Assembly (NCBI GenBank): GCA_035502055.1
Contig: DATJVB010000036.1
Location: 1-59,801 of the forward strand
Direction of reading: 5' to 3'
DNA: 59,801 nt
Source of the DNA: Thermoplasmata archaeon
Lineage (GTDB): Archaea; Thermoplasmatota; Thermoplasmata; Lutacidiplasmatales; UBA184
In this document: piece by piece, positions 35,805 through 50,561 of the stretch
Position numbering within the stretch: the stretch's first letter is position 1
Layout of the letters: each line of letters begins with the position of its first letter
The notes under the pieces: model-generated
Database searches by the model: none
What the model was told of the DNA's origin: nothing
What the model saw: only the letters and a program-made list of their open reading frames with translations
Program-made: the position numbers and the translations under genes

Positions 35805-35807
35805 GCT

Positions 35808-36311: not shown

Positions 36312-36728
36312 TCAGGATCGACCCGCCTTCCTCATCCGGTACGTGCGAATCGGAACGCCGTGTCCGATGTCCATCAGCAGCCGGTCGCCCGTGGCCAACG
36401 CCTCCGATCGTGCCAGGGCCATTCCCGCGAGCTGCGCGTCCACGGTTCCCAGCGCCCGTCCCGCCCGACGTAGGGTCGACTGAAGGGCACCTGCCGAGCG
36501 GGCGTCGGCCGCATCGAACTCCACGGCTTCGTAGGAGGTCTCGAGCAGCTCGAGCTGCTGGCGGTCGCGCGTTCGACCCCCGGCCCGGGAGGTGCCCACC
36601 CAGAGCTCAAAGAGCACGGGGGCGGGCAGTCGAAGCCGATCGCCCTCCGCGTCGATCGCCGCGGCCAGAGCCACGGCCTCGGGCTGGCCCTCCATCAGAT
36701 CGATGAGGAAGCTCGCGTCGAGCAGCAT
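36312..36728 (-). CDS. vapC: PIN-domain toxin VapC
   Basis: 138 aa. MLLDASFLIDLMEG (first acidic residue), PAPVLFELWVG and LATGDRLL are typical PIN/VapC motifs. Confidence 0.85.
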   Translation of the reverse strand: MLLDASFLIDLMEGQPEAVALAAAIDAEGDRLRLPAPVLFELWVGTSRAGGRTRDRQQLELLETSYEAVEFDAADARSAGALQSTLRRAGRALGTVDAQLAGMALARSEALATGDRLLMDIGHGVPIRTYRMRKAGRS

Positions 36729-36729
36729 C

Positions 36730-36942
36730 CTACCGGTCCAGACGTCGGCGCTCCGCTCGATCCTCTGCGACGGCGGCCCTCAGCGCGGCGGCGGCTTCAT
36801 GGCTCAAGACGCCGGCGAAATCCGAAAGTGGCTTCCGACGGGTCAGTCGGAGGACGACTTCGGAGAAGCTTTCGGCCTCTCCCTTCTGGGCCCGAAGTCG
36901 ACGATAGGCCTCGTCGGTTACGGTGATGGTCCGTACCGCCAT
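36730..36942 (-). CDS. vapB: VapB-type antitoxin (archaeal VapB/DUF217-like)
   Basis: 70 aa, ending 1 nt before the vapC start. MAVRTITVTDEAYRRLRAQKGEAESFSEVVLRL matches the archaeal VapB antitoxin pattern (KTI.V.DE.Y.RL...K...ESFS.VI.RL). Confidence 0.8.
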   Translation of the reverse strand: MAVRTITVTDEAYRRLRAQKGEAESFSEVVLRLTRRKPLSDFAGVLSHEAAAALRAAVAEDRAERRRLDR

Positions 36943-37027
36943 GTGTGTTTAAACGTAAACAGGGTATTTGAGCCCACCGAAGCCCCGATCGTAGGAGATG
37001 GACTCCCCGGATCTGGATGGTCATCGG

Positions 37028-37065
37028 GAGAGTCCTCCGGCGTGGGTTCATGCTCCCGGCGGGAA
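37028..37065 (-). repeat. Cassette-boundary repeat: GAGAGTCCTCC box plus the TGCTCCCGGCGGGAA core (copy 3)
   Basis: CATGCTCCCGGCGGGA at 37049..37064 is a 16-nt perfect match to 37804..37819. Positions verified with track ORF 36998..37249. Confidence 0.8.
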
Positions 37066-37132
37066 CCATCCCAAAGATGGTTCAAATCCGGGCTACCGGC
37101 GTATCTGGCTCGGTCCCGGAAAGGGGGGCCCC

Positions 37133-37411
37133 CTAGAACCCCTTCAGCTCGTGGTAGGCGCTCGCCCGGTGGCGGAAGGCGACGATCCGGATCAGGTCCC
37201 CATCCACGCGGTAGAAAGCTCGCCACCGGCCCACGGCCAGGCGCCATAGCCCGGATCGCCCCACCACGGGCCGAAGGTTCAGCTCCGGGTCCCATCCCGT
37301 CGGGTTGCGGACCAGGAGGTCGAACGCACGCCCGAAGGCCAGCTGCCCCCGGCGCGGAAGCCGGGCCAGCTCCCCGTCCGCCCCGCGCTTGAAGCGCAGG
37401 GAGTACGCCAT
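37133..37411 (-). CDS. relE: RelE/ParE-superfamily toxin (archaeal RelE-like)
   Basis: 92 aa. GRSGLWRLAVGRWRAFYRVDGDLIRIVAFRHRASAY is the RelE core pattern. Confidence 0.8.
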   Translation of the reverse strand: MAYSLRFKRGADGELARLPRRGQLAFGRAFDLLVRNPTGWDPELNLRPVVGRSGLWRLAVGRWRAFYRVDGDLIRIVAFRHRASAYHELKGF

Positions 37412-37412
37412 C

Positions 37413-37628
37413 CTACAGCTTCAGGCGCTTGCGCACCCGCTCCCAGGGGACGTCCGGTTCTTCGCGCAGCCTGCGTTCGATCTCCCGGAAGAACGACTCC
37501 GGAGGGTTTTCCTCCATGAGATCGAGCACGACATCGTCGTACGTCTTTCCCCCGATTCGGTAGGTCTCCAGGAGCCGGCGGGTCGAGGAACGCACCTGGA
37601 TGGTGGTGGGCGGGTCGGCCGCAGCCAT
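37413..37628 (-). CDS. Putative antitoxin of the adjacent RelE-like toxin
   Basis: 71 aa, ending 1 nt before the toxin start. It is a paralog of 35574..35804. A CTTAAG A/T box lies about 26 nt upstream. Confidence 0.65.
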   Translation of the reverse strand: MAAADPPTTIQVRSSTRRLLETYRIGGKTYDDVVLDLMEENPPESFFREIERRLREEPDVPWERVRKRLKL

Positions 37629-37805
37629 GAGCGTTCTATGGCCGCTATGGACTTAAGCCTGCCTCTGTCGGTGGGAGCTGCCGGCCCTTCGCCGTCCTGC
37701 CCCCGGACCGCCTTGGCCCCGGTCCAACGTGGGGCCCGGGAATCGAGGGCGAATCGGTTCATGATCGGCCCTCGCGGTCCGCACTCCGCCTGGGAAGGGT
37801 GGCCA

Positions 37806-37880
37806 TGCTCCCGGCGGGATTCGAACCCGCGTTGTCGGGTCGAAGGCCCGATATCCTTGACCGGACTAGACTACGGGAGC
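37806..37880 (-). tRNA. tRNA-Glu (anticodon UUC), 75 nt, no encoded CCA
   Basis: Hand-folded cloverleaf. Acceptor GCUCCCG pairs with CGGGAGC. The D arm is GUCU-AGUCCGGUCAA-GGAU. The anticodon arm is UCGGG-CCUUCGA-CCCGA. The T arm is GCGGG-UUCGAAU-CCCGC, with discriminator A. The sequence was cross-checked against the codons of track ORF 37799..38083. The anticodon loop has C, not U, at position 33. Confidence 0.8.
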
Positions 37881-39842: not shown

Positions 39843-40679
39843 ATGCCGCGGCGCCGGGGCACCATCCGGGTCATCGAGGGCGACGCCCGCCGGCTCGACG
39901 GCCTCGGGGAGGGATCGGTCCATCTCGTCGTCACCTCGCCCCCGTACCCGATGATCCCCGTCTGGGACGCGCTGTTCGCGTCGTGGGGGGCCCGGGGGTT
40001 CGAGGCGATGCACGCCGCCCTCGACGCGGCGTGGGCGGAGGCGGCCCGGGTCCTCGTCCCCGGCGGGCTCCTCGCGATCAACGTGGGCGACGCGCTGCGC
40101 CGGGTCGACGGCGAGTTCCGGCTCTGGCCGAACCAGGCCCGCGTCACCGCGGCGGCGACCCGGCTCGGACTGTCGCCGCTCCCGTACGTCCTGTGGCAGA
40201 AGCCGACGAACCGGCCGAACGCCTACCTCGGATCGGGGTTCCTCCCGCCGAACGCGTACGTCACCCTCGACTGCGAGTACGTCCTCCTCTTCCGGAAGGG
40301 GCCGCCCCGGCGGTACCCTCCCCACGACCCGGACCGGACCGCGAGCCGCTACTCGCGGGCGGACCGGGACGTCTGGTTCAGCCAGGTCTGGACCGGCGTG
40401 ACGGGGGCCCGGCAGGGCCCCGACGGGAACCGGACGAGCGCCTTCCCGGCCGAGCTCCCGCGCCGGCTCGTCCGGATGTTCTCGGTCGTCGGCGAGACGG
40501 TCCTGGACCCGTTCGCCGGCACCGGCACCACCCTGTTCGCCGCGGCCGAAGAGGGCCGGGAGGCGATCGGGGTCGAGCTCGACCCGGTCCGCGCCGAGGC
40601 GCTCAGCCGGCGGGCGGCGGCGTGGAACCGTTTGGCGGCCGCTCGCGCCCCGCGAGCTCCTCGTCGACGGCGCGCTTGA
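39843..40679 (+). CDS. DNA methyltransferase, beta-class N4-cytosine/N6-adenine type
   Basis: 278 aa. Motif IV TSPPY precedes motif I DPFAGTGTT, which is the beta-class order. The FPAELP region is also present. The SPPY form is more typical of N4-cytosine enzymes. Confidence 0.85.
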   Translation: MPRRRGTIRVIEGDARRLDGLGEGSVHLVVTSPPYPMIPVWDALFASWGARGFEAMHAALDAAWAEAARVLVPGGLLAINVGDALRRVDGEFRLWPNQARVTAAATRLGLSPLPYVLWQKPTNRPNAYLGSGFLPPNAYVTLDCEYVLLFRKGPPRRYPPHDPDRTASRYSRADRDVWFSQVWTGVTGARQGPDGNRTSAFPAELPRRLVRMFSVVGETVLDPFAGTGTTLFAAAEEGREAIGVELDPVRAEALSRRAAAWNRLAAARAPRAPRRRRA

Positions 40680-41148
40680 GATAGCCGAGGGCGTGGTCGC
40701 TCAGCCGGTCCATGTGCAGTAAGAGGTAGTGGAGGTACACCCGCTCGGGCCGGCGCGACGGGCCCGGCGGATGGCTCCGCACCCCCGGTCCGCCCGCCGT
40801 CCGCTCCGCCCCCGCTTCCAGCGTCGTCGGGTCGTGCTGGTGCTCCGGTCCGTGGAAGGCGCGTCCGGTGCCCCGCGTGAGCGGCGGGTACACCCGGTCG
40901 ACCGGATCGAGGGCCGCCGCTGGGTCCGCCGCGGCGCCCGCGGGTCCCATGCGCCCCGGGTTCGGACCCTTCGCCGAGACCGGCGGGAGGTGGCCGAGCT
41001 TGTGGGCGAGGTACGGGTGGACGGGCCGCGACGGGTCCTGGAAGTCGGTGATCGGCCGGCCGGCGACGCGCTCGACGATCGTGGTGAGGCTCCAGCTCTC
41101 CCGCCGGCGCGCCGGACCGTCGGCCGTCGACGAGTCCGCCCCCGCCAC
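40603..41148 (-). CDS. Hypothetical protein, last gene of the VirB4 operon
   Basis: GTG at 41148 lies in frame in track ORF 40603..42708, with strong GC3 bias. The sequence is VAGADSS..SWSLTTIVERVAGRPITDFQDPSRPVHPYLAHKLGHLPP...RVYLHYLLLHMDRLSDHALGYLKRAVDEEL. I recognise no domain. The opposite-strand ORF is Arg-rich junk. Confidence 0.4.
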   Translation of the reverse strand: MAGADSSTADGPARRRESWSLTTIVERVAGRPITDFQDPSRPVHPYLAHKLGHLPPVSAKGPNPGRMGPAGAAADPAAALDPVDRVYPPLTRGTGRAFHGPEHQHDPTTLEAGAERTAGGPGVRSHPPGPSRRPERVYLHYLLLHMDRLSDHALGYLKRAVDEELAGRERPPNGSTPPPAG

Positions 41149-41170
41149 GGGCGACCCTCGGCCGCGCCTC

Positions 41171-41177
41171 TGATAAA
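41171..41177 (-). promoter_or_regulatory. TTTATCA box 26 nt upstream of the GTG at 41148
   Basis: An isolated A/T heptamer in the 53-nt gap after the VirB4-like stop. The same TTTATC hexamer occurs upstream of the antiporter gene at 31835..31840. Confidence 0.3.
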
Positions 41178-41201
41178 CGTGCCGTTCGACGGGCACGCGC
41201 G

Positions 41202-42857
41202 CTACGCGGGCCCCGTCGGACGGACGAGGGTCCCCTCGAGCAGCTCGACCTCGGGGGTCGACGCGACGAACGCGAGCGGCAGGTGCGCCGGGCCGACGCG
41301 CAGGAGGCCCTCCGAGTAGCCGACGTCCCGGGCGACCCGGGCCCGCGGAACCCACTCCGCCTCGGCGTCGGTGAGCCGGAAGATCGCCCGGGCCGCGTCC
41401 GAGACGTGCGGGAGGCGCAGGAGGGTGACGTCGCCCAGGTTCCTGAGGAGCGCGCGACCCGGGTCGGTCGTCGCGAAGTCGTCCGGGTCCTGGCTCGCGA
41501 GGACGAGCCCGCCCGCGAAGTGCCGGACGTGGCGCACGAGCCGGTCGAGGAGCGAGAGCGCGGCCGGGTCCCGGGCCAAGAGGTGCGCCTCGTCGACGAG
41601 GACGAGCTTGGGACCGGGCCGGCGGGCGAGCCGGCCCGCGACGGCGTCGAGCAGGAAGGCGAGATGGTACGGCCGGTGCCCGTCGGCGACGTGGCGGAGA
41701 TCGATCGCGACGGGCCCCTCGGACCACCGGACGGTCGTCGGACCGTTGAGCCCGCGGAGCGATCCCGAGACCACGAGCTCGAGGAGGCCGGGGAGCGCGC
41801 CCGGACGGGCGTCGCGCGCGACGCGGTCCTGTAGGTCCGCGAACGTCGGCTCCGCGAGCTCCGCGTACGCCCGGGCGAGCGCCCGGTCGAGGGCGCCCAT
41901 CTCCTCGTCGTTCAGCGACGGGAACAGCGTCCGCAGCTCGAGCGCGGCGCGCGCCGCCTTCTCGGTCCGGTCCCCGAGCGTCGTCGCCGGGTCGAGCGGG
42001 TTGAGCCGGCCCCCGTCGGGGCTCCCGAGGGCGACCACGTCGCCGCCGATCGCGCGCACGAACGGCCCGAACTCGCCGAGCGGGTCGAGGACGACGAGGT
42101 CGAGGTCCGGGTATCGCCAGCGGCTCCGGAGCATCGTCACGGCGGCGAGGAACGACTTCCCCGACCCGGTCGCCCCGAAGATCGCCGACGAGTGGCTCGC
42201 CCGCGCGAACCGGTTGAGGAAGACGGGGGCGGCGTCGTCGAGCGACAGCCCGACGAGGATCCCGCCGGGCTCGGCGACCGCCTCCTCGATGAACGGGAAG
42301 AACGCGGCGACGCCGTCGGTGTGGAGGGTGTGCCAGAACCCCGCCGGCCGGTCCTCCGGGCCCGCGAGCGCCGGGCCGGCGAGGGCGGGGGTCGTCTCGA
42401 ACCGGGGCGGCCGGACGCCGAACCCGAGAGCCGCCGCCCGGCGGGCGACCGTCGACCGGAGCCGCTCCGCCGCCGCGCGCGTCGCGGCGCGCGCCGTGAG
42501 GACCCAGCCGACTCGGTAGAGCCCCTGCTCCCGCGCGGCGACCCGGTCCCCGAGCGCCGTGGCGCTCGCCCGTTCGACCTCGAGGGCGCTCGTCGATCCG
42601 GGGCCGCCGTCGTCCGGCGCGGCGAGCTCGACCGACGCGACCGAGCGGGCCCGTCCGAGCAGCTCGAGCGCCTGCGGACGCGCGATCGGATGCAGGTGCA
42701 TCCGCCACTCGGCCCGGGAGCCGCTCGGCAGGATCCGGCCGACGACCCCGAACGGCACCTCGCTCGGCAGCGAGGAGAGGAGGATCGGCGCCTCGATCCC
42801 CGAGGGGTCCGTCCGGGTGGTCGCGCCCTCGCGTCCCGGGCCGCGTCGCGCGCTCAT
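41202..42857 (-). CDS. VirB4/TrbE/CedB-like conjugation-type ATPase
   Basis: ATG at 42857 lies in frame in track ORF 41202..43199 (MSARRGPG..). Walker A is IFGATGSGKSFLAAV and Walker B is KLVLVDEAHLL. The VLASQDP region is present. The about 230-aa N-terminal domain is of the VirB4 type (FWHTLHTDGVAAFFPFIEE..GILVGLS). The start overlaps the upstream stop (ATGA). Confidence 0.8.
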   Translation of the reverse strand: MSARRGPGREGATTRTDPSGIEAPILLSSLPSEVPFGVVGRILPSGSRAEWRMHLHPIARPQALELLGRARSVASVELAAPDDGGPGSTSALEVERASATALGDRVAAREQGLYRVGWVLTARAATRAAAERLRSTVARRAAALGFGVRPPRFETTPALAGPALAGPEDRPAGFWHTLHTDGVAAFFPFIEEAVAEPGGILVGLSLDDAAPVFLNRFARASHSSAIFGATGSGKSFLAAVTMLRSRWRYPDLDLVVLDPLGEFGPFVRAIGGDVVALGSPDGGRLNPLDPATTLGDRTEKAARAALELRTLFPSLNDEEMGALDRALARAYAELAEPTFADLQDRVARDARPGALPGLLELVVSGSLRGLNGPTTVRWSEGPVAIDLRHVADGHRPYHLAFLLDAVAGRLARRPGPKLVLVDEAHLLARDPAALSLLDRLVRHVRHFAGGLVLASQDPDDFATTDPGRALLRNLGDVTLLRLPHVSDAARAIFRLTDAEAEWVPRARVARDVGYSEGLLRVGPAHLPLAFVASTPEVELLEGTLVRPTGPA

Positions 42858-43189
42858 ACGGCCGTCCGGCCGCGGACCCATCCGGCGATCGGGAGCCCCC
42901 CCAGGCCGAGGATCGGTCCGCCGAGGTGGAGCGCGCCGACGGCCGGCACGGCGAGCGCGACCCAGCCGAGGCCGTAGGCGGCGACGCCCACGGCGGTCCA
43001 TCGGGGGTCCCGCGGGAGCGCTCCGCGGTCCCGGGCGAGCCGCAGGACGATCGTCGCCCCCAGGAGCGCGGCGAGCGCCTCGGCGAGCCCGAGGAAGTAC
43101 GGGACCGCCGCGGCGACGAGCCCGCTCGCGAGCGCCGCGACGGCGATCGTTCCCGGACCGACGGGGCGGTCCCCTCCGCCGTCCGTCAT
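42854..43189 (-). CDS. Small polytopic membrane protein (3-4 TM), unknown; possible VirB3/CedA2-like role
   Basis: ATG at 43189 lies in frame in track ORF 42854..43939. The sequence is MTDGGGDRPVGPGTIAVAALASGLVAAAVPYFLGLAEALAALLGATIVLRL..AVGVAAYGLGWVALAVPAVGALHLGGPILGLGGLPIAGW. There are ATGA overlaps at both ends. Confidence 0.55.
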   Translation of the reverse strand: MTDGGGDRPVGPGTIAVAALASGLVAAAVPYFLGLAEALAALLGATIVLRLARDRGALPRDPRWTAVGVAAYGLGWVALAVPAVGALHLGGPILGLGGLPIAGWVRGRTAV

Positions 43190-43959
43190 GCGCGGCCACC
43201 CGACGGAAAGCCGGCCCGCTCGACGGCGGTCCGAAGGACGGGCCCCGCGAGCCGCGTCGCCGGCACGCCGAGCGTGGCGAGGCGTTCCTCGATCCCCCGC
43301 GCCCGGGACTCGAGCGGGTCGTCCGGCCCCCCCGACGGGCCCGACCAGATCGCGATCTCGATCCGCCGGCGCCGCCGCCGCTGGCAGAGGAGCCGGACGA
43401 GGGCGTCGTACCCCGCGCGTGCGGCCCGCTCGCCCTCCGAGACGGCCGGCCCGGCCGGCAGCCGGAACGCCCGGTCCGACCACGGCTCGCTCGTCACCCG
43501 TACGAAGATCGGCCCGTCGAGGCTCCGCAGGAGCTCGACGTACCCGTCGAACAGCGCCCGGGCATCGGGCGGCGGCAGGTAGGCGACGGGGATCCCGCCC
43601 GCGGCGATGACCACGAGGCGGTGGCCGTCCGGAAGACGGACGACGCGCTCGAGCGGCCGCGCCGGACCCCGCGCGCGGGGGCCCGGGCTCCGGCGTCGCC
43701 GGCGCACCTCGTACGCGACGCGGTCGAGGAGCCGTTCGTCGAGGGTCCGCCCGTCCGATTCGCGCGTCGTGAGGAGGAATCCGCCTCCGAGGAACGGCAG
43801 CCACGCGATCGGACCGACGGCGAGCGCGGCGAGGAGGCCCGCAGTTGCGACGGCGGCGAACCGGAGCGCCGCCCCGGCCGTCGGGAACGGACCGAACCGG
43901 GGTCGCCGCCCGACGGGCGCGGGCAGCGGGATCGCCCACGGACCCGGCGCTTCGCTCAC
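43186..43959 (-). CDS. Membrane-anchored protein (N-terminal TM hairpin plus about 180-aa cytoplasmic domain), unknown
   Basis: GTG at 43959 lies in frame in track ORF 43186..44649 and overlaps the VirB6-like stop (GTGA). The TM hairpin is ALRFAAVATAGLLAALAVGPIAWLPFLGGGFLL. The soluble part is ..VVIAAGGIPVAYLPPPDARALFDGYVELLRSLDGPIFVRVTSEPW... Confidence 0.55.
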   Translation of the reverse strand: MSEAPGPWAIPLPAPVGRRPRFGPFPTAGAALRFAAVATAGLLAALAVGPIAWLPFLGGGFLLTTRESDGRTLDERLLDRVAYEVRRRRRSPGPRARGPARPLERVVRLPDGHRLVVIAAGGIPVAYLPPPDARALFDGYVELLRSLDGPIFVRVTSEPWSDRAFRLPAGPAVSEGERAARAGYDALVRLLCQRRRRRRIEIAIWSGPSGGPDDPLESRARGIEERLATLGVPATRLAGPVLRTAVERAGFPSGGRA

Positions 43960-45083
43960 GGAGCCCCCGAGGGAGGCGGGCTGCTCCGGCCGAACCGCGG
44001 CATCGGCGCCGCCCGACGCTCGATCCGACGGCCGAGATGGCGGACCAGGTGGACCGCGCCCCGGCCGACGATCTCCGCGCCGACGAGGGGGATCGTCGCC
44101 GGGAAGCCGGCCCGCCCGCCGACCTCGCCGAGCCGGCCGGCGACGCGCGCGGCCGTCGAACCGGCGCCTCCGATGCGGGCGCCGGACCGGAGAAGACCGC
44201 CCGTCGCGGAGGACCCGGCGGCGAGTCCGCGCTGGATGCCGCCCACGAGCGCCGAGTGCGCCGACGGGTAGCCGACCCCGGTGAGGTGGCTCCCGGCGAG
44301 CGAGACGAGCGACGGGGCGCCGAGGGCGATGGTGAGGAAGCCGAGCAGCAGGAGGACGCTCGGCGCCCCGACGGCGAGCTTGAGGGGCACGACGATGACG
44401 CACGGGAGGAACGCCGCCTCCACGAGCCAGAGCCAGGCCCGCCGGGCGATCGGGGCGAACGTCGGGATCGGATAGAGGAGGGTGAACGCCGGCAGGAGGA
44501 CGAGGAGGACCGCGAGCAGGGCGTCCCGGAGCGCGACGGCGGCGGCGAGGAGGAGGACGACGGAGAAAAGGGCGAACGAGACGACGAACGCGAGGACCCC
44601 GTTGTCCCACGAGAAGCCGACGCCGCCGACCCCCGCGAGATCGACCCACTGCTGCCAGGCGACGCCGTCGAGCCCCTGGACCGTCGCGTACGTCGCGCCG
44701 GCGATCGATAGGATCCCGCCGGCGACGGGGACGGCGAGGTTCGCGAGGACGATCGAGACGACCAGCTTCGGGAGCGCGGCCTCGAACTGGACCGCCCGGG
44801 GACCGAAAGTCGACCGGGCGAGGTACAGGAGCGCGACGCCCGCCCCGACCACCACGATCGCGGGGTCGACGAGCCCGACGACGACCAGATCGCTCAGCCG
44901 GGCGGCCTCGGCGAGGAACCCCGACGCCGGTCCGAACGGCGGGAGCGAGGGATAGAGCGACCCGGTGGCGAGCTCGGGGACCAGGAGATGGTCGTACGTC
45001 GGGCCGATCACGGCCGCCAGGAGCGCCGTGAGCGTCGAGAACATCGCGAAGAGGAGCGCCTGGAGGAGGACGGTCGGGTCCAT
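43956..45083 (-). CDS. VirB6/TrbL/CedA-like polytopic membrane protein
   Basis: 375 aa with about 7 TM helices over the first 280 aa, then a Gly/Ala-rich soluble tail. Size, topology and position between the pilin-like and VirB4-like genes fit VirB6/CedA. There is no sequence-level proof. Confidence 0.55.
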   Translation of the reverse strand: MDPTVLLQALLFAMFSTLTALLAAVIGPTYDHLLVPELATGSLYPSLPPFGPASGFLAEAARLSDLVVVGLVDPAIVVVGAGVALLYLARSTFGPRAVQFEAALPKLVVSIVLANLAVPVAGGILSIAGATYATVQGLDGVAWQQWVDLAGVGGVGFSWDNGVLAFVVSFALFSVVLLLAAAVALRDALLAVLLVLLPAFTLLYPIPTFAPIARRAWLWLVEAAFLPCVIVVPLKLAVGAPSVLLLLGFLTIALGAPSLVSLAGSHLTGVGYPSAHSALVGGIQRGLAAGSSATGGLLRSGARIGGAGSTAARVAGRLGEVGGRAGFPATIPLVGAEIVGRGAVHLVRHLGRRIERRAAPMPRFGRSSPPPSGAP

Positions 45084-45093
45084 CGACCGCTCC

Positions 45094-45474
45094 TCAGGTG
45101 CCCGTCAGCACCCAGTGGGCGAGCCCCCAGACGAGGCCCGAGAGCGCGGCGACGAAGAGGAGCGTCCCGACGAGCGCGTCCCGGGCCCGGTCCCGGGCCT
45201 GGATCTTCTTCGTCAGGTCGTGCGAGAACCAGCTGAGGGCGACGCGCGCCCAGGCGATCGCCAGGAGTCCGCTCCCCGCGACGCCCAGCAGGGTCACGAT
45301 CCGGTTCACGGACGCGGTGAAGTTCTCGACCGGCGTCCCCGAGGCGCTCGCGCCGACCCCGGCCGCGTCCGCGGCGCCCGGAGGGCCCGACGGACGCCCC
45401 GGCGACGGGAGACCGGCGGGGACCAGGAGGACGGCGGCGAGGAGGATCGTGCCCGCCACGCCGGCCGGCCTCAT
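45094..45474 (-). CDS. VirB2/TrbC-like pilin candidate (CedA1/TedC-like)
   Basis: ATG at 45474 lies in frame in track ORF 45094..46317 and overlaps the upstream stop (ATGA). The protein is 126 aa. A signal peptide (MRPAGVAGTILLAAVLLVPAGL) is followed by two hydrophobic helices (IVTLLGVAGSGLLAIAWARVALSWF and ALVGTLLFVAALSGLVWGLAHWVL). A basic loop (SHDLTKKIQARDRARD) separates them. Confidence 0.55.
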   Translation of the reverse strand: MRPAGVAGTILLAAVLLVPAGLPSPGRPSGPPGAADAAGVGASASGTPVENFTASVNRIVTLLGVAGSGLLAIAWARVALSWFSHDLTKKIQARDRARDALVGTLLFVAALSGLVWGLAHWVLTGT

Positions 45475-47078
45475 GCGGCCTCCGGGGGGCGGGCGGCCGC
45501 CTCCCTTGGGGTCGGGACGATCGCGAGCTTCTCCGACTCCCCGGAGCCGACGACCCGGATCCGGCCGCGCGCGAGGCCGGTCTCGATCGCGCGCTGGGCG
45601 GAGTCGACGTCGACGCCGGCCTCCTGCGCGAGGTACTCGAGGTCCTCCCGTCCCACGGGCCCGTCCTCGGCGAGGATCCGCTCGACCGTCGACTCCGGGC
45701 CGGGAGGCGGCATCGACAGGGCCGGCGGCCCGGGGCGTCGGGGGAGGAACCGGACCGCGACCGCGCCGGCACCGGCCCCGATCGCGAACGCGGCGACCGC
45801 CCACACCATCGCGTCGTCGCCGGCAGGCGCCCCGCCGCCGCCCGTCGGCGAGGGGACGGATCGGGCGGGCAGCTCGATCGTGGAGGCGGCGGACGCGGAC
45901 CGGCCCGCGGCGTCGGTGGCGACGACCGTCGCGGTGAGGTAGCCTCCCGCGTCGGGATTGGCCGTCCAGTCGACGGCGCCGGGCCCGGAACGGTTCCCGT
46001 GCGTCGCCTCCCCGTCGGACAGGGCGATCGCGTAGGCGTACGGCGCGAACCCTCCCGACAGGACGACGGAGACCGAGACGCTCCCGTTCGCCGCGGCGGG
46101 GAGCGTGTCGAACGCGAGCCCGACGCCGACGGCCGGGACGACCTCGACCGAGACGTTCGCCGACCGCTCGACGCCGATCGCGTCGGCGACGGTCGCGACG
46201 AGCGTGAAGTTCCCCGCGGTCGGGAACGTCCCCGCCCAGGCGATCGGGCCGGGCCCGGCTTCGGTGCCGTTGGGCGGTGTCGTCGCCTCGACCGGGCCGT
46301 CGACGCCGAACGACCACCGGATCGGCGGCGCCCCGCCGACGGCGAGGAGGTCGAGCGCGACCGGCGCGGCGACCTCGGTCTCGACCGCTGCTTCAGGGGC
46401 GATGAGGTCGAGCGCGGCGCCGACGGTCGCGACGTCCGCGGTCGCGCTGGCCGCGCCGCCGACCGAGTCGGTCACCGTCGCCGCGACCCACAACGGCCCG
46501 GACCCGTTCGCGGCGACGGGTTCCGTGAGCGACCCCGCCTTCGGCACGCTCGCGGTCCCGCCGTCGTCGCCGCCGGAGACGGTCCAGGTTAGCGAGTACG
46601 GCGCGACCCCGCCCGTGATCGCGAACGTCGCGGGGACCGGAACGCCGACGTCCGTCGCGTCGTCCCCCGCGGCGATGGAGAGCGCGGGAGACGGGACCGT
46701 CGTCACCGTGCAGTTCGCCGTCGCGTAGTCGGAGGCGCCGTCGCCGGCGGCGAGGGAGATCGTCACGGAGGCGTTCGGGGAGAGCGTGACCGTCCAGTTG
46801 GCCGACCGGCCGACGCCGAGCCCGTCGCCCGTCCACAGGTAGGTGAACGGCGGCAGCCCGCCGATCGGATCGGCCGACAGGACGAACGGAACGAACGGGT
46901 CGGCCGACGGTCCGGGTCCCGCGATCGTGACCGCGAACCCGTCGGCGGGACGGACCGCCGTCCGGACCGAGGCGGATCCGGGGCCGGAGTCGAGCGGCGT
47001 CGCTGCGACCGCGGGCGACGCCGCGACCAGGCCGGCGGCGAGCAGAAGAGCGACCGTCGCCGCGCACGGACCCCGCAT
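45471..47078 (-). CDS. Surface protein with 4-5 Ig-like repeats, a single TM, and a cytoplasmic wHTH-like C-terminal domain
   Basis: ATG at 47078 lies in frame in track ORF 45471..47795, with GGGAGGG 5 nt upstream. The signal peptide is MRGPCAATVALLLAAGLVAASPAVA. Repeats carry GG.PP(Y/F).Y.W motifs. The TM is MVWAVAAFAIGAGAGAVAV. The tail is STVERILAEDGPVGREDLEYLAQEAGVDVDSAQRAIETGLARGRIRVV. Confidence 0.7.
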   Translation of the reverse strand: MRGPCAATVALLLAAGLVAASPAVAATPLDSGPGSASVRTAVRPADGFAVTIAGPGPSADPFVPFVLSADPIGGLPPFTYLWTGDGLGVGRSANWTVTLSPNASVTISLAAGDGASDYATANCTVTTVPSPALSIAAGDDATDVGVPVPATFAITGGVAPYSLTWTVSGGDDGGTASVPKAGSLTEPVAANGSGPLWVAATVTDSVGGAASATADVATVGAALDLIAPEAAVETEVAAPVALDLLAVGGAPPIRWSFGVDGPVEATTPPNGTEAGPGPIAWAGTFPTAGNFTLVATVADAIGVERSANVSVEVVPAVGVGLAFDTLPAAANGSVSVSVVLSGGFAPYAYAIALSDGEATHGNRSGPGAVDWTANPDAGGYLTATVVATDAAGRSASAASTIELPARSVPSPTGGGGAPAGDDAMVWAVAAFAIGAGAGAVAVRFLPRRPGPPALSMPPPGPESTVERILAEDGPVGREDLEYLAQEAGVDVDSAQRAIETGLARGRIRVVGSGESEKLAIVPTPREAAARPPEAA

Positions 47079-48288: not shown

Positions 48289-48380
48289 GACCGGTCCCGA
48301 ACCGGGGAAGGGAGAAAACGGTACGGGACGGTTCCGCTCCGCCGGAAGCCTATTTCCGCCGCCGGGCGTCCCCCCGGAGG

Positions 48381-48851
48381 ATGAGCGGGTTCCTGCGCCG
48401 GCTTAGGCGTCGCCCGGCCAAGGAGGAGCCGGAGGCGGAGGAGGAGCCCGAGGAGGTCCCCGAGCCGCCGGCGTTCGTCCCGTTCCCCGAGGACCGGCGG
48501 GCGCCGCCCGAGGAGCCCGAGTACCCTCCCCCCCTCGAGGTGGAATCGCCCCCCGAGGCGAACCCCCCCGCGACCTCCGAGGCCGCCCCCGCGGCCGATC
48601 TCGCTCCCGAGCCGCTCCCCGACGCGCCGACGGCCGAGCCCCCGCCGACGGCCCCGTCCCGTCCCGAGGCGCCCCCGCCGGTCGCCGCGGCCGAACCGCC
48701 GCCGCTCGGGCCGCCGCCGTTGCCGCCCACCGACCTCGACTCCGTCCGCGCGGCGACGCCGGCCCGGTCCGGGTCGACGCGGTGCTTCATCTGCGGCACC
48801 GAGCTCGTGGGGACGTACTGTCCCACGTGCCGGATGGCGTGGAACGAGTAG
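48381..48851 (+). CDS. Pro/Glu/Ala-rich disordered protein ending in a CxxC..CxxC zinc ribbon
   Basis: 156 aa with a basic N-terminus (MSGFLRRLRRRPAK). About 110 aa of P/E/A low complexity follow, then CFICGTELVGTYCPTCRMAWNE. Confidence 0.5.
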   Translation: MSGFLRRLRRRPAKEEPEAEEEPEEVPEPPAFVPFPEDRRAPPEEPEYPPPLEVESPPEANPPATSEAAPAADLAPEPLPDAPTAEPPPTAPSRPEAPPPVAAAEPPPLGPPPLPPTDLDSVRAATPARSGSTRCFICGTELVGTYCPTCRMAWNE

Positions 48852-48911
48852 CGCCGCCGCGCCGCGCGACCCGGCAGGTTATACCCCTCCTCCCCTCCCA
48901 ACGTCCCCTCC

Positions 48912-50561
48912 ATGAGCGGTCCCCCCCGCCCTCCCCCGGACCCGCTCGCGCCGGTCGAGAGCGCGATCGTCGACCACCTGTTCGTGCTCCAGCCCGGCTA
49001 TGCGGTGTTCCTCGGCCTCCACCGGTACGACGGGCTCCTCCCCGATCTCACCCGGGAGGGGACGGACCGATGGGTCGGCCGGGCGCGGGAGCTCCTCAAG
49101 GAGCTCGCGGCCGTCCCCCTCGACGGGCTGCCGCCGGGGCGCCGCCTCGACGCGCAGCTCCTCGGCCTCCTCCTCGAGAGCCCGCTGTTCGACCTCGTCG
49201 ACGCCCGCGAGCTCGAGCGGAACCCCATGTCGTACGCGGGAGCGCTGTCGCTCACGGCGTACATCGCCCGGGAGTACGCCCCGCTCCCCCAGCGCGTCGA
49301 CGCGATCGTCCGCCTCCTCGACGCCGCGCCCGGGTTCCTCGCCGCCGGCAGGGCCCGCCTCGACGAGCGGATCCCGGAGCCGTTCCTCACGCTCACCCAG
49401 TCGATCGCGAGCGGCCTCCCGGCGCACTTCGCCGAGACGGAGGCGATCGCCCGCGCCGGGTCCGCCGCCCTCGGCGATCGGGTCGCCGCGGCCCGCGGGC
49501 CGGCGGAGGCGGCGGTCGCCGACTTCCTATCGGCCCTCGAGCGGGAGTACTTTCCGCGACGGATCCCCGACTTCGCGCTCGGCGCGGAGAAGTTCCAGCG
49601 GCTCCTCTGGGTCCGCGAGGGGCTCACGACGCCGTTCGACCAGATCGAGGAGGCCGGGTGGGCCGACCTGCGCCGGAACCAGGCCCGGCTCGACGCCCTC
49701 GCCGCCGGCGCGTCGCCCCCGGGGACCGTCGACGATCTCCTCGAGTCGCTGTACCGGAAGCACCGGCCCGCGTCCGCGCTCGTCCCGTTCGCGCAGGGAT
49801 GCGTCGAGGAGGCGCGCACGTTCGTCGTCGAGCACGCCCTCGCGACGATCCCCGAGCCCGACCTCTGCCGCGTCGAGGAGACCCCCGTCTACGGCCGGGC
49901 CCTCTCGACGGCGAGCATGAACCCCCCCGGTCCGTTCGACACGTCGACGGACGAGGGGATCTACTACGTGACGCCGGTCGACCCCGCGTGGCCCGCGCCG
50001 CGCCAGGAGGAGTGGCTCCGGTCGCTCAACGACGCGATGCTGCGGAACATCACGGTCCACGAGGTCTACCCGGGCCACTACCTGCAGTTCCTCCACTTCC
50101 GGCGCCAGCGCAACGCGTCGCTCGCCCGGAAGGTGTTCTTCTCCGCGTCGTTCGTCGAGGGGTGGGCGCACTACTGCGAGCAGCTCGCGATCGAGGCCGG
50201 GTTCGGGCGCGGCGGGCCCGAGGCGGAGGCGGCGCAGCTCCACGACGCCCTCCTCCGCAACTGCCGGCTCCTCGCGGCGATCGCGCTCCACGCCCGCGGC
50301 GGCTCGGTGGAGGCCGCGACGGAGCTGTTCATGCGCGAGGCGCACATGGAGCGCCTCCCCGCGGAGCGCGAGGCGATCCGCGGGACGTTCAACCCGGAGT
50401 ACTTCTGCTACACCTTGGGGAAGCTCGCGATCCTCGACGCGCGCGCGGGCCTCCTCGCGAGCCGGTACGCGGGCTCCCTGCGCCGGTTCCACGACACGCT
50501 GCTCGGCTTCGGCGCTCCGCCGGTCGGCGTCCTGCCGGCCCTCCTCGCGTCGGCGGCGTAG
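48912..50561 (+). CDS. DUF885-family protein (putative metallopeptidase-like)
   Basis: 549 aa. The HEVYPGHYLQF (HExxPGH) motif and the EGWAHYCEQL motif are typical of DUF885. Confidence 0.8.
   Translation: MSGPPRPPPDPLAPVESAIVDHLFVLQPGYAVFLGLHRYDGLLPDLTREGTDRWVGRARELLKELAAVPLDGLPPGRRLDAQLLGLLLESPLFDLVDARELERNPMSYAGALSLTAYIAREYAPLPQRVDAIVRLLDAAPGFLAAGRARLDERIPEPFLTLTQSIASGLPAHFAETEAIARAGSAALGDRVAAARGPAEAAVADFLSALEREYFPRRIPDFALGAEKFQRLLWVREGLTTPFDQIEEAGWADLRRNQARLDALAAGASPPGTVDDLLESLYRKHRPASALVPFAQGCVEEARTFVVEHALATIPEPDLCRVEETPVYGRALSTASMNPPGPFDTSTDEGIYYVTPVDPAWPAPRQEEWLRSLNDAMLRNITVHEVYPGHYLQFLHFRRQRNASLARKVFFSASFVEGWAHYCEQLAIEAGFGRGGPEAEAAQLHDALLRNCRLLAAIALHARGGSVEAATELFMREAHMERLPAEREAIRGTFNPEYFCYTLGKLAILDARAGLLASRYAGSLRRFHDTLLGFGAPPVGVLPALLASAA

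What the first reader, a model, noticed from the sequence alone, without database searches (positions are those of the whole stretch)
40603..47078. Compositionally native, minimal VirB2/VirB6/VirB4-type operon in an archaeal chromosome: candidate Ced/Ted-like DNA-transfer machine with novel accessory proteins
Seven same-strand genes run from 47078 down to 40603:
- an Ig-repeat surface protein
- a 126-aa pilin candidate (signal peptide plus two-helix hairpin)
- an approximately 7-TM VirB6-like protein
- a TM-hairpin protein
- a 111-aa polytopic protein
- a VirB4-like ATPase with clear Walker A and B motifs
- a 181-aa unknown protein

Four junctions are 4-nt start/stop overlaps (ATGA or GTGA at 45471-45474, 43956-43959, 43186-43189 and 42854-42857), so the genes look translationally coupled.

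I see no relaxase, no VirD4/TraG coupling protein and no integrase. There is no GC drop. The flanks are housekeeping genes (fibrillarin/RidA upstream, HPS-RraA downstream).

Established knowledge: the crenarchaeal Ced system (CedA, CedA1, CedA2, CedB) and the Pyrobaculum Ted system use a VirB2-like pilin, a VirB6-like membrane protein and a VirB4-like ATPase to move DNA between cells.

A similar set in a high-GC euryarchaeon-like background, with a different accessory complement, would be an undescribed variant.
Basis: partly seen in the sequence, partly recalled or inferred. Interest (0 to 1): 0.9.

Follow-up and report, generated by a model that had tools for sequence, protein, structure and literature searches.

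The report
Chromosomal conjugation-like machine in soil archaea
A group of high-GC soil and peat Thermoplasmata archaea carries, at one fixed chromosomal site, a stripped-down relative of the bacterial conjugation machine with no mobile-element genes, so it may be a third archaeal case of conjugation machinery taken over by the host, probably to exchange DNA.

Summary
Seven same-strand genes lie at 40603-47078, with four 4-nt start/stop overlaps and GC and GC3 like the flanks.

- **g6** is a VirB4-type ATPase (VirB4-like CD1110 model 2.7e-33; solved VirB4 structure 4AG5 2e-31). It is not CedB or HerA.
- **g2** is a VirB2-like pilin by transitive evidence: 16 of 27 distant relatives match Pfam T4SS_pilin, two above threshold.
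- **g4** resembles the extended PrgI (VirB3-like) proteins of actinobacterial conjugation clusters.
- **g3** sits where VirB6 sits and has a matching topology, but the homology evidence is weak.
- **g1** is a variable Ig-repeat surface protein with a conserved cytoplasmic winged-helix tail.

In 13 related contigs, from contigs of up to 1.2 Mb, the block always lies between fibrillarin and a DNA methyltransferase followed by HPS-RraA. It diverges in step with those neighbours (Mantel r=0.89), so it is inherited vertically and is not an integrative conjugative element (ICE).

No relaxase, coupling protein or integrase was found among the window genes tested. More distant relatives of g2 and g6 do sit in plasmid or ICE contexts that carry them.

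I read it as a host-captured, monoderm-type type IV secretion system (T4SS). It resembles Ced/Ted in lifestyle but is not a member of either. DNA transfer is inferred, not shown.

The parts
45471..47078 (-). g1: type I membrane protein. It has a signal peptide, a fast-evolving Ig/PKD-like ectodomain, one membrane-spanning segment (residues 424-442) and a conserved cytoplasmic winged-helix-like tail of about 65 aa. Candidate partner-recognition protein or adhesin.
   Evidence: Pfam Big_9, SprB and PKD. Membrane segments. Mean pairwise identity is 26% for the ectodomain and 40% for the membrane segment plus tail. The tail gives consistent sub-threshold winged-helix hits: DUF5817_CT in 8 of 11 orthologues, Rrf2 in 7, GntR in 6, plus MarR, TrmB and HTH_24.
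45094..45474 (-). g2: VirB2-like (T4SS_pilin superfamily) prepilin. It has a leader of about 45 aa, a conserved N-x-S/T sequon, and then a two-helix hydrophobic hairpin with a basic loop.
   Evidence: AlphaFold2 predicts helices 48-91 and 97-124 with pLDDT of about 80-90. The mature part is 77% identical across 12 genomes, against 22% for the leader and 68% for fibrillarin. A whole-library profile search finds 31 relatives. Of 27 more distant ones, 16 hit PF18895 T4SS_pilin (best 3.4e-8; two reach 28 bits, above the 26.6-bit gathering cut-off) and 3 hit CagC. The window protein itself has no Pfam hit.
43956..45083 (-). g3: polytopic membrane protein (about 6-7 segments plus an Ala/Gly/Arg-rich C-terminal tail). 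Candidate VirB6-like channel or platform.
   Evidence: Membrane segments. Precomputed PF19590 TrbL_3 (weak) in 14 of 120 homologues, not reproduced by hmmscan. The AlphaFold2 model is all-helical but of low confidence (pLDDT 66). Foldseek lists R388 TrwI/VirB6 twice among 12 hits, at E=4-8, which is not significant. hhalign against the polytopic protein upstream of PrgI in an Embleya plasmid gives P=0.004. Gene order matches prgH-prgI-prgJ (recalled from memory, not checked).
43186..43959 (-). g4: extended PrgI/VirB3-like protein. It has an N-terminal membrane hairpin and a cytoplasmic domain of about 170 aa. Proposed membrane dock for the ATPase.
   Evidence: NCBIfam SCO6880_fam in 4 of 12 orthologues (best 5.6e-5) and PrgI in one (0.094). 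The g4 profile hits the Embleya plasmid 'PrgI family protein' that lies two genes upstream of the VirB4-like gene, collinearly over nearly its full length: hmmsearch E=5.5e-6 in a 26-protein set, hhalign P=0.0015 over 233 columns. There is weak similarity between the C-terminal domain and the N-terminal 173 aa of a full-length bacterial VirB4 (P=0.019).
42854..43189 (-). g5: small membrane protein with 3-4 segments, poorly conserved. A lineage-specific accessory of unknown role.
   Evidence: Present at the same position in all orthologous loci but only 34% identical on average. No family hits.
41202..42857 (-). g6: VirB4-type T4SS ATPase, soluble. It lacks the first 200-285 residues of canonical VirB4 proteins.
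   Evidence: NCBIfam: VirB4-like CD1110 family 2.7e-33 (matching model positions 286-734 of 752), Mbov_0397 VirB4 1.2e-26, VirB4_CagE 2.2e-19, TraC 3.1e-11. By contrast CedD is 1.9e-5, HerA about 1e-4 and CedB 0.12. The profile against solved structures gives 4AG5 VirB4 at 2.2e-31 and HerA-like proteins at 3e-8 or weaker. Walker A and B motifs are present. Plasmid relatives are actinobacterial and haloarchaeal VirB4-like proteins.
40603..41148 (-). g7: conserved soluble protein of unknown fold, with motifs RRRxSWSLxTIVExVAGRPI and PERLYLHYLLLHMDRLSD. Probably has its own promoter.
   Evidence: 58% mean identity across 12 genomes. No hit in Pfam, NCBIfam, PADLOC or the solved-structure sequences.
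41172..41177 (-). Candidate TATA-like box (TTTATC) 23 nt upstream of the g7 GTG start. This would fit a leaderless g7 transcript.
   Evidence: It is the only AT-rich patch in the g6-g7 spacer. A matching patch (GTTTATC, or TTTTATA in L013) is present in L003, L004 and L013. Not tested experimentally.
39843..40679 (+). Solitary N6/N4 DNA methyltransferase (SPPY motif before FAGTGTT, beta-class order). It is convergent with g7 and overlaps it. It is a conserved neighbour, but a functional link to the block is unproven.
   Evidence: Pfam N6_N4_Mtase 3e-32. PADLOC Type II methyltransferase 1.3e-91. Present in the same position in all 13 related loci, 70% mean identity. No restriction enzyme gene lies next to it.

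Best explanation
This is a minimal, monoderm-type type IV secretion system (T4SS) that descends from a conjugation module. It has become a vertically inherited chromosomal operon in a clade of high-GC soil and peat Thermoplasmata.

**Proposed working (steps 1-4 follow from the assignments of the parts; step 5 is inference by analogy)**
1. The g2 prepilin is inserted through Sec, its leader of about 45 aa is removed, and the hairpin waits in the membrane.
2. The soluble VirB4 ATPase g6 is docked to the membrane by the PrgI/VirB3-like g4, next to the polytopic, VirB6-like g3 and the small g5.
3. g6 pulls pilin out of the membrane to build a VirB2-type tube or short conduit, and it powers passage of the substrate.
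4. The variable Ig-repeat surface protein g1 makes or selects cell-cell contacts. Its conserved cytoplasmic winged-helix tail couples this to the machine or to DNA.
5. The block has no coupling protein, relaxase or integrase. The precedents for such systems are the archaeal Ced and Ted systems and ComB of Helicobacter pylori, so the substrate is most likely cellular DNA taken up from, or exchanged with, related cells.

**Sub-confidences**
- T4SS-derived machine: about 0.9
- Chromosomal and vertically inherited, not an integrative conjugative element (ICE): about 0.9
- Makes a pilus or conduit: about 0.6
- Moves DNA: about 0.45
For: **Identity of the parts**
- g6 is VirB4-type.
- g2 links to T4SS_pilin and CagC through its own distant relatives, and is predicted to form a helical hairpin.
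- g4 matches extended PrgI-family proteins.
- The order g3-g4-g5-g6 is collinear with the order polytopic protein, PrgI family, small protein, VirB4-like in an Embleya plasmid. There it is followed by a coupling protein, a replication-relaxation protein and an NlpC/P60 hydrolase, all of which are absent here.

**Host capture**
- Thirteen of 13 related loci with enough flank show the order DUF885, RidA, fibrillarin, g1-g7, methyltransferase, HPS-RraA. These loci come from contigs of up to 1.2 Mb.
- g6 divergence tracks divergence of the housekeeping flanks: Mantel r=0.89, with 0 of 5000 permutations as high.
- GC and GC3 are native.
- No integrase, relaxase or coupling protein was found among the window genes scanned.
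- There is no matching Rfam feature and only one tRNA, 2.7 kb from the block.

**Purifying selection**
- All seven ORFs are intact in 12 genomes.
- The mature pilin is more conserved than fibrillarin.

**Contrast with mobile relatives**
- A distant pilin relative (L041) lies beside an integrase, a weak relaxase match and a TrwB-type coupling protein (1.5e-36).
- The haloarchaeal and Embleya relatives of g6 are on plasmids.

**Precedent**
- Ced and Ted are host-captured T4SSs that import DNA without a relaxase or coupling protein (PMC9905601; PMC11868833).
Against: - No experiment or expression data bears on function.
- The VirB6 assignment of g3 is weak.
- The window's g2, g3 and g4 have no significant direct Pfam hit; the links go through orthologues and relatives.
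- Foldseek found nothing for the g2 model.
- Patescibacteria carry a comparable chromosomal T4SS with VirB2-like pilins and no relaxase. It is thought to serve epibiotic growth rather than conjugation (PMC12102498), so lacking a relaxase does not imply DNA import.
- I could not search the rest of these genomes for a coupling protein or relaxase encoded elsewhere.
- The related loci were found by searching for the ATPase, the pilin or g3, so I cannot say how many genomes of the clade lack the block.
Confidence: 0.55

Rival explanations
1. It is the same host-captured T4SS-derived machine, but its job is not DNA transfer. It might build an adhesive or contact pilus, or move proteins or other molecules between cells, as proposed for the chromosomal T4SS of Patescibacteria.
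For: Patescibacteria have a chromosomal, relaxase-free T4SS with VirB4, PrgI/VirB3, VirB6 and PF18895/VirB2-like pilins. It is essential for epibiotic growth (PMC12102498; PMC12857230). The pilin family linked to g2 is the same Pfam family used in that study. g1 looks like an adhesin. Nothing in the block has been shown to bind or process DNA.
Against: The only archaeal precedents for a chromosomal system of this kind, Ced and Ted, move DNA. These archaea have genomes of about 2 Mb and are not known to be episymbionts (PMC9287336). The winged-helix tail of g1 and the conserved DNA methyltransferase neighbour hint weakly at DNA.
Confidence: 0.3
2. The block is the mating-pair-formation module of an ordinary integrated conjugative element or an integrated plasmid.
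For: The closest non-Thermoplasmata relatives of g6, g4 and g2 are on plasmids or in ICE-like contexts. A tRNA-Glu gene and toxin-antitoxin genes lie 3-5 kb away.
Against: The block sits at the same chromosomal position, between fibrillarin and the methyltransferase/HPS-RraA pair, in 13 of 13 related contigs whose housekeeping flanks are only 55-91% identical to one another. It co-diverges with those flanks. GC and GC3 are native. No integrase, relaxase or coupling protein was found among the window genes scanned or next to the block in the related loci. Nothing was found in IMG/VR, although that search used only two peptide patterns.
Confidence: 0.03
3. The ATPase is a HerA/FtsK-like or defence-type NTPase that works with the adjacent methyltransferase (for example a MADS-like methylation-associated defence system), and the membrane proteins are unrelated to T4SS.
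For: Pfam calls g6 only DUF87/HerA central domain. PADLOC gives mad8 at 9.3e-14 for g6 and mad2 at 8.9e-16 for the methyltransferase. The methyltransferase is a conserved neighbour.
Against: VirB4 models score far higher: 115 bits for CD1110 and 112 bits for 4AG5, against about 50 bits for mad8 and 21-35 bits for HerA. The methyltransferase matches a generic Type II methyltransferase far better (1.3e-91). None of g1-g5 or g7 hits any PADLOC model. g2 and g4 link independently to T4SS families.
Confidence: 0.05
4. It is a decaying remnant of an ancient integration that no longer functions.
For: The canonical T4SS parts VirB8, VirB1, VirD4 and a relaxase are missing. g5 and the g1 ectodomain evolve fast.
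Against: All seven ORFs are intact, coupled and syntenic in 12 diverged genomes. The ATPase motifs are invariant. The mature pilin is 77% identical, against 68% for fibrillarin. Hundreds of 90%-identity clusters exist for g2, g3 and g6.
Confidence: 0.03

Closest known systems
Ted system of Thermoproteales (TedC pilin, TedA VirB6-like, TedB VirB4-like; PMC9905601)
   Same: Both are chromosomal ('domesticated') T4SS derivatives in an archaeon. Both have a pilin with a cleavable signal peptide, a polytopic membrane protein and a genuine VirB4-type ATPase. Neither has a relaxase, coupling protein or integrase.
   Different: The phylum differs (Thermoplasmatota, not Thermoproteota). The g2 profile found nothing among solved-structure sequences; I expected TedC to be in that set but did not check. 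TedA and TedB were not compared. This system also has a PrgI/VirB3-like protein, a surface protein with a winged-helix tail, g5, g7 and a conserved methyltransferase neighbour. The ParA, Rad50 and HerA neighbours seen in some Ted loci are absent.
Ced system of Sulfolobales and Desulfurococcales (CedA, CedA1, CedA2, CedB, CedD, CedE)
   Same: The concept is the same: a host-owned, T4SS-derived machine with a VirB2-like pilin and a VirB6-like membrane protein that imports cellular DNA. The VirB4 N-terminal domain is shared out between two proteins in Ced (CedB and CedD). This is loosely echoed here, where g4 may carry the part that g6 lacks (weak).
   Different: g6 is not CedB or CedD (10.9 and 23.6 bits, against cut-offs of 700 and 600). 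There is one ATPase here, not two, and it has no membrane segment. The Ced pilins have no cleaved signal peptide. PMC11868833 states that VirB3 homologues are absent from archaea, whereas g4 is VirB3/PrgI-like.
Chromosomal T4SS of Patescibacteria (PMC12102498)
   Same: The component set is nearly the same: VirB4, PrgI/VirB3, VirB6 and VirB2-like pilins of Pfam PF18895. It is chromosomal, has no relaxase, and derives from monoderm (FATA-class) conjugation systems.
   Different: It is bacterial. It often includes TrsD and arrays of pilin genes. It is linked to an epibiotic lifestyle, and its function is thought not to be conjugation.
Monoderm conjugation modules (FATA class): pCF10 PrgH-PrgI-PrgJ, the C. 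difficile CD1110 family, actinobacterial SCO6880/PrgI-family clusters such as the Embleya plasmid NZ_CP108778, and haloarchaeal plasmid VirB4/VirD4 clusters
   Same: These give the best sequence matches for g6 and g4. The gene order (polytopic protein, PrgI-like, small protein, VirB4) is collinear.
   Different: They are plasmid- or ICE-borne. They carry a coupling protein, a relaxase or replication-relaxation protein and a cell-wall hydrolase, and they move themselves.
ComB DNA-uptake T4SS of Helicobacter pylori
   Same: It is a T4SS without a coupling protein or relaxase, used for DNA uptake (established knowledge; not tested here).
   Different: It has diderm architecture with VirB7-10 homologues. 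No specific sequence relationship was tested.

Membership tests
VirB4/TrbE/CagE T4SS ATPases | C-terminal ATPase domain of VirB4 type with Walker A and B motifs, scoring better against VirB4 than against HerA, FtsK or VirD4 | tested here: met
   CD1110 VirB4-like 2.7e-33, VirB4_CagE 2.2e-19, 4AG5 2.2e-31. HerA scores 1e-4 or weaker and VirD4-like 0.25. Motifs confirmed.
VirB4/TrbE/CagE T4SS ATPases | Score above the curated cut-off of a named NCBIfam equivalog (CD1110, Mbov_0397, TraC, TrbE) | tested here: not met
   115 bits against a cut-off of 325, 92.7 against 590, 41.9 against 567. g6 belongs to the superfamily but to none of these named subfamilies.
VirB4/TrbE/CagE T4SS ATPases | Full-length N-terminal domain (about 250-300 aa) preceding the ATPase domain | tested here: not met
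   g6 residues 90-528 match CD1110 model positions 286-734 of 752. The bacterial relative in L020 has 173 extra N-terminal residues. These may correspond to the C-terminal domain of g4, but only at hhalign P=0.019.
VirB2/TrbC/T4SS_pilin conjugative pilins | Small protein with a signal peptide and two hydrophobic helices joined by a short charged loop | tested here: met
   AlphaFold2 hairpin 48-91 and 97-124 with a basic loop. Hydropathy. Conservation.
VirB2/TrbC/T4SS_pilin conjugative pilins | Significant match to PF18895, PF04956 or PF16943 | tested here: inconclusive
   The window protein has no hit at E<=1. Two of 12 orthologues hit PF18895 (best 1.2e-3). Sixteen of 27 distant relatives recovered by the g2 profile (E from 7e-15 to 4e-4, whole library) hit PF18895, two of them above the gathering score. 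Three hit CagC and one hits TrbC at 0.056. Support is therefore transitive.
VirB2/TrbC/T4SS_pilin conjugative pilins | Forms a lipid-associated helical filament with a lumen | not testable with these tools
   This needs multimer modelling or cryo-EM.
VirB6/TrbL | Polytopic membrane protein with 5 or more segments, encoded next to VirB3 and VirB4 | tested here: met
   About 6-7 segments. Position is directly upstream of g4.
VirB6/TrbL | Detectable sequence or fold homology to TrbL/VirB6 | tested here: inconclusive
   No Pfam or solved-structure hit. Precomputed TrbL_3 (weak) in 14 of 120 homologues, not reproduced. Foldseek matches to TrwI/VirB6 at E=4.3 and 8.2 on a model with pLDDT 66. hhalign P=0.004 against the Embleya upstream polytopic protein.
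VirB3/PrgI | N-terminal membrane hairpin protein encoded just upstream of VirB4, with similarity to PrgI or SCO6880 family models | tested here: inconclusive
   SCO6880_fam in 4 of 12 orthologues, best 5.6e-5, which is below the cut-off. PrgI at 0.094 in one. Collinear match to an annotated PrgI family protein (hmmsearch 5.5e-6 in a small set, hhalign P=0.0015). The results agree with each other, but all are sub-threshold.
Ced system | CedB and CedD ATPases | tested here: not met
   CedB E=0.12 (10.9 bits against 700). CedD 1.9e-5 (23.6 bits against 600).
Ced system | CedA, CedA1 and CedA2 membrane proteins | tested here: inconclusive
   The g2 profile found nothing among solved-structure sequences. 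I expected the CedA1 pilus chain to be in that set but did not check. CedA and CedA2 were not available for comparison.
Ted system | Orthology to TedA, TedB or TedC | tested here: inconclusive
   The g2 profile found nothing among solved-structure sequences. I expected TedC to be in that set but did not check. TedA and TedB sequences were not at hand.
Integrative conjugative element or conjugative plasmid | Relaxase, coupling protein and integrase; variable chromosomal location; foreign composition | tested here: not met
   None of these genes was found among the window genes scanned or next to the block in related loci. The location is fixed in 13 of 13 loci. The block co-diverges with its flanks. 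GC is native.
MADS or other anti-phage defence systems | Match of several components to one defence system's models | tested here: not met
   Only g6 (mad8, 9e-14) and the methyltransferase (mad2, 9e-16) match, and both match VirB4 and Type II methyltransferase models far better. g1-g5 and g7 have no hits.

The most novel reading that the evidence does not exclude
This would be a third, independent capture of conjugation machinery by archaea, and the first outside the Thermoproteota. It is inherited vertically as a core operon in acid-soil and peat Thermoplasmata, probably Lutacidiplasmatales-like. It would mediate species-restricted exchange or import of chromosomal DNA. A fast-evolving Ig-repeat receptor (g1) would set partner specificity, and its cytoplasmic winged-helix tail, a VirB3-like docking protein (g4) and the neighbouring solitary DNA methyltransferase would form parts of a DNA-handling route that needs neither a relaxase nor a coupling protein.
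Probability: 0.3. Interest if true: 0.85.

Novelty: new variant of a known kind. Interest (0 to 1): 0.72.

Why it matters
Host-owned conjugation machinery has so far been described only in hyperthermophilic Crenarchaeota (Ced and Ted) and, with an unclear role, in Patescibacteria. [quoted passage not shown]

A vertically inherited, relaxase-free system with VirB2-, VirB3-, possibly VirB6- and VirB4-like parts in abundant mesophilic soil and peat Thermoplasmata would have several consequences:
- Host capture of conjugation machinery would be recurrent, and not tied to life at high temperature.
- It would offer a mechanism for gene flow in an uncultured but widespread archaeal group.
- It would contradict the published statement that archaea lack VirB3 homologues (PMC11868833).
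- It would provide a compact seven-gene set for testing what the minimum requirements are for a pilus-forming T4SS in a cell with a single membrane.

The family is large: hundreds of 90%-identity clusters exist for g2, g3 and g6. Metatranscriptomic and population-genomic tests are therefore possible now.

Tried and rejected
- **Profiles against solved-structure sequences.** g2, g3, g4 and g7 gave nothing usable.
- **Foldseek, g2 model.** No hits at all; small helical hairpins are poorly handled.
- **Foldseek, g3 model.** Only non-significant hits, on a low-confidence model.
- **Is g2 related to the N-terminus of g3?** Beltran et al. saw this for CedA1/CedA and VirB2/VirB6. There was no signal here.
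- **g4 against g6.** Only a faint repeat-like similarity, E=0.11.
- **TrbL_3 check.** Ten g3 homologues that carry a precomputed TrbL_3 flag gave no hit on re-scanning with hmmscan, so I downgraded that evidence.
- **Genome-collection scan.** An alignment query would have been better.
- **IMG/VR.** No relatives found, but only two peptide patterns were used. The scan with the mixed pilin alignment failed.
- **Block profiles against distant VirB4 loci L019-L036.** Only the ATPase was detected.
- **Embleya 'XF1762 family' protein.** It occupies the position of g5 but is not similar to it.
- **Streptomyces and Haladaptatus plasmid contexts.** These added nothing on VirB6.
- **ICE hypothesis.** Considered and rejected on synteny and co-divergence.
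- **MADS-like defence hypothesis.** Considered and rejected on relative scores.

Full report
**Source and setting.** The window is a 59.8-kb contig of a 'Thermoplasmata archaeon' metagenome-assembled genome; the g6 protein is recorded on exactly such a contig. GC is 0.65-0.79. Fibrillarin, an archaeal type IV pilin and a single tRNA-Glu gene confirm an archaeal chromosome. The composition (about 72% GC), the peat and soil sample sources, and related contigs of up to 2.2 Mb fit the order Lutacidiplasmatales, described as about 69% GC with genomes of about 2.1 Mb (PMC9287336). I did not test that placement.

**Check of the observation.** The four junctions read ATGA, GTGA, ATGA and ATGA. GC (0.75-0.79) and GC3 (0.91-0.96) match fibrillarin, RidA, DUF885 and HPS-RraA. 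Two corrections are needed:
- The immediate downstream neighbour is a convergent N6/N4 DNA methyltransferase (39843-40679) that overlaps the end of g7 by 77 nt. HPS-RraA lies beyond it.
- The g6-g7 spacer holds a TATA-like TTTATC 23 nt before the g7 start. A matching patch is present in three orthologous loci, so g7 may be transcribed on its own.

**g6, the ATPase.** Pfam reports only DUF87 and AAA_10. NCBIfam ranks VirB4 models far above the alternatives:

| Model | E-value |
|---|---|
| VirB4-like CD1110 family | 2.7e-33 |
| Mycoplasma ICE VirB4 (Mbov_0397) | 1.2e-26 |
| VirB4_CagE | 2.2e-19 |
| TraC | 3.1e-11 |
| CedD | 1.9e-5 |
| HerA | about 1e-4 |
| CedB | 0.12 |

A 50-sequence profile hits the solved VirB4 C-terminal domain 4AG5 at 2.2e-31, while HerA-like proteins reach only 3e-8. 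It is also not CedB. g6 matches model positions 286-734 of 752, so it lacks most of the canonical N-terminal domain.

**g2, the pilin candidate.**
- Across 12 genomes the leader of about 45 residues is hardly conserved (22% identity), but the mature 80 residues are 77% identical. That is more than fibrillarin at 68%.
- AlphaFold2 predicts a signal helix, a disordered linker and a hairpin of helices 48-91 and 97-124 with a basic loop.
- The window protein has no Pfam hit, the profile finds nothing among solved-structure sequences, and Foldseek finds nothing.
- An exhaustive profile search of 1.84 billion representatives finds only 31 relatives. They share a specific motif, LWV.VA...FS.DP.KK..AKE....A..GT, and an N-x-S/T sequon just before helix 1.
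- Sixteen of the 27 more distant relatives match Pfam PF18895 T4SS_pilin (best 3.4e-8). Two of them, P0380 and P0383, score 28 bits, above the 26.6-bit gathering cut-off. Three match the CagC (VirB2) family and one matches TrbC weakly.
- PF18895 is one of the two Pfam families used to find VirB2-like pilins in Patescibacteria.

I accept g2 as a VirB2-like pilin on transitive profile evidence. Filament formation has not been tested.

**g4, the hairpin protein.**
- Four of 12 orthologues hit the NCBIfam SCO6880 family (best 5.6e-5) over the hairpin, and one hits PrgI.
- The best plasmid relative of g6 is on an Embleya (Actinomycetota) plasmid. Its gene order is a 753-aa hypothetical protein, a 349-aa 'PrgI family protein', a small protein, the VirB4-like ATPase, a coupling protein, a replication-relaxation protein and an NlpC/P60 hydrolase.
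- The g4 profile matches that PrgI family protein collinearly over almost its whole length: hmmsearch E=5.5e-6 in a 26-protein set, and hhalign P=0.0015 over 233 columns.
- g4 is therefore an extended PrgI/VirB3-like protein.
- Its C-terminal domain resembles, weakly (P=0.019), the 173 N-terminal residues that a full-length bacterial VirB4 has and g6 lacks. This is a lead, not a result. In Ced, CedB and CedD each carry a different part of the VirB4 N-terminal domain.

**g3, the polytopic protein.** It has about 6-7 membrane segments and a soluble Ala/Gly/Arg-rich tail. It sits where VirB6 sits in prgH-prgI-prgJ-type clusters (that comparison is from memory). The direct evidence is weak:
- No Pfam or solved-structure hit.
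- A precomputed weak TrbL_3 flag on 14 of 120 homologues, which hmmscan did not reproduce.
- A low-confidence model, pLDDT 66.
- Foldseek lists R388 TrwI/VirB6 twice among its 12 hits, at E=4-8.
- hhalign P=0.004 against the Embleya protein upstream of PrgI.

I call g3 VirB6-like by position and topology, with homology unproven.

**g1, g5 and g7.**
- g1 has a signal peptide, Ig/PKD-like repeats, one membrane segment and a cytoplasmic tail. The ectodomain is only 26% identical between genomes, while the membrane segment plus tail is 40% identical. The tail repeatedly gives sub-threshold winged-helix matches: DUF5817_CT in 8 of 11 orthologues, Rrf2 in 7 and GntR in 6.
- g5 is a poorly conserved small membrane protein.
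- g7 is a well-conserved soluble protein with no match in any library.

**Context and inheritance.**
- Every related locus with enough flank shows DUF885, RidA, fibrillarin, g1-g7, the methyltransferase and HPS-RraA in the same order and orientation. These are L003-L006, L008-L013, L015, L017 and L037, from contigs of up to 1.2 Mb.
- Mean pairwise identities:

| Protein | Mean identity |
|---|---|
| HPS-RraA | 83% |
| Methyltransferase | 70% |
| Fibrillarin | 68% |
| g6 | 61% |
| g7 | 58% |
| g3 | 55% |
| g4 | 43% |
| g5 | 34% |
| g1 | 29% |

- Pairwise identities of g6 track those of the housekeeping flanks: Mantel r=0.89, with 0 of 5000 permutations as high.
- A sister clade (L039) keeps the same operon order.
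- None of the window genes I scanned is an integrase, relaxase or coupling protein. The lower-GC patch at 35.5-37.7 kb holds three toxin-antitoxin pairs and no integrase-like ORF.

**Where it came from.** Distant relatives are mobile.
- A pilin relative in a 42%-GC organism (L041) lies beside an integrase, a 2183-aa surface protein, a weak relaxase match and a TrwB-type coupling protein (1.5e-36).
- A 29%-identical VirB4 (L020) lies beside a VirD4-like ATPase and an M23 peptidase.
- Haloarchaeal plasmids carry VirB4-like relatives at 27-33% identity. VirB4/VirD4 clusters on haloarchaeal plasmids are already described (PMC13532300).
- The simplest history is an ancient capture of the pilus-and-channel core of a monoderm-type conjugation module, with loss of the DNA-processing and cell-wall parts.

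**Function.** What is shown is the identity of the parts and their vertical inheritance under purifying selection. What is inferred is that the machine builds a VirB2-type conduit and moves DNA. The inference rests on the Ced and Ted precedents, on the absence of a coupling protein and relaxase, and on weak hints from the winged-helix tail and the methyltransferase neighbour. The Patescibacteria system shows that the same set of parts can serve another purpose, so I give a non-DNA role about 0.3. A defence role is unlikely: PADLOC matches only g6 (mad8) and the methyltransferase (mad2), and both match VirB4 and Type II methyltransferase models far better.

**Novelty.** Searches of the paper library found Ced and Ted only in Crenarchaeota, plasmid-borne VirB4/VirD4 systems in Thermococcus and haloarchaea, and no description of a chromosomal T4SS in Thermoplasmata. 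PMC11868833 states that VirB3 and VirB8 homologues are absent from archaea, and g4 argues against the first part of that statement. I rate this a new variant of a known kind. It is widespread: hundreds of 90%-identity clusters exist for g2, g3 and g6.

**Limits.**
- The related loci were found by searching for the ATPase, the pilin or g3, so the fraction of the clade that lacks the block is unknown.
- I could not search whole genomes for a coupling protein or relaxase encoded elsewhere.
- I scanned about 28 window genes against Pfam and judged the rest only from their N-terminal sequence.

Noticed in passing
window 1-7600: An archaeal type IV pilus or archaellum-like locus lies about 33 kb from the block. 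It comprises a partial pilin-like gene (1-312, minus strand), a T2SSE ATPase (791-2419), two T2SSF membrane proteins (2451-3386 and 3383-4840), a Pilin_N protein (4977-5801), a KaiC-like gene (5936-6547) and an AAA ATPase (6557-7600). In Sulfolobales, Ups type IV pili are needed for Ced-mediated exchange.
   Followed up: partly
window 34700-37880: A lower-GC patch (0.65-0.69) holds a TrmB/ArsR-like winged-helix gene and three toxin-antitoxin pairs (35574-36110, 36312-36942, 37133-37628). It lies next to tRNA-Glu (37806-37880, minus strand). No integrase-like ORF was seen. A VapBC pair sits in a similar place in L003.
   Followed up: partly
window 39843-40679: A solitary beta-class DNA methyltransferase (SPPY motif, suggesting N4-cytosine) is convergent with g7 and overlaps it by 77 nt. 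It is conserved at this spot in all 13 related loci, with no restriction enzyme gene nearby.
   Followed up: partly
L041:2214-14058 (GCA_964455305.1, 42% GC): An ICE-like element carries a distant relative of the g2 pilin. Its genes are an integrase, a 2183-aa beta-helix/Ig surface protein, a 67-aa protein, the pilin, a 314-aa acidic protein, a 209-aa protein with the relaxase-like motif HYNTDHPHSH, and a TrwB-type coupling protein. The host organism was not identified.
   Followed up: partly
proteins P0379, P0382, P0384-P0388: Long forms (about 260-340 aa) of the pilin family have an N-terminal beta-rich domain, then a Gly/Trp-rich linker (GGGSWWGGGG) and the C-terminal pilin hairpin. These may be pilins fused to a tip or adhesin domain.
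   Followed up: no
window 45310-45330 (g2 residues about 49-55) and all relatives in alignment A10: An N-x-S/T sequon lies just before the first pilin helix in the whole family (NFTAS, NATxNLS, NGSQY, NQTYV). This fits N-glycosylation of an exposed N-terminus.
   Followed up: no
L043 (Haloarcula sp. CBA1115 plasmid NZ_CP010531, 86679-106415): A haloarchaeal plasmid cluster holds a VirB4-like DUF87 protein (189 bits to the g6 profile). It also has a 153-aa protein with a PrgI-like N-terminal hairpin, and a neighbouring Ig-like protein next to a separate winged-helix protein. This echoes the fused Ig plus winged-helix architecture of g1.
   Followed up: partly
window 48381-48851 (+) overlapping 48350-48913 (-): Between RidA and DUF885 there is a Pro/Glu-rich ORF ending in a CxxC...CxxC zinc-ribbon motif. 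The coding strand is uncertain, and the region is weakly coding by my codon model.
   Followed up: no
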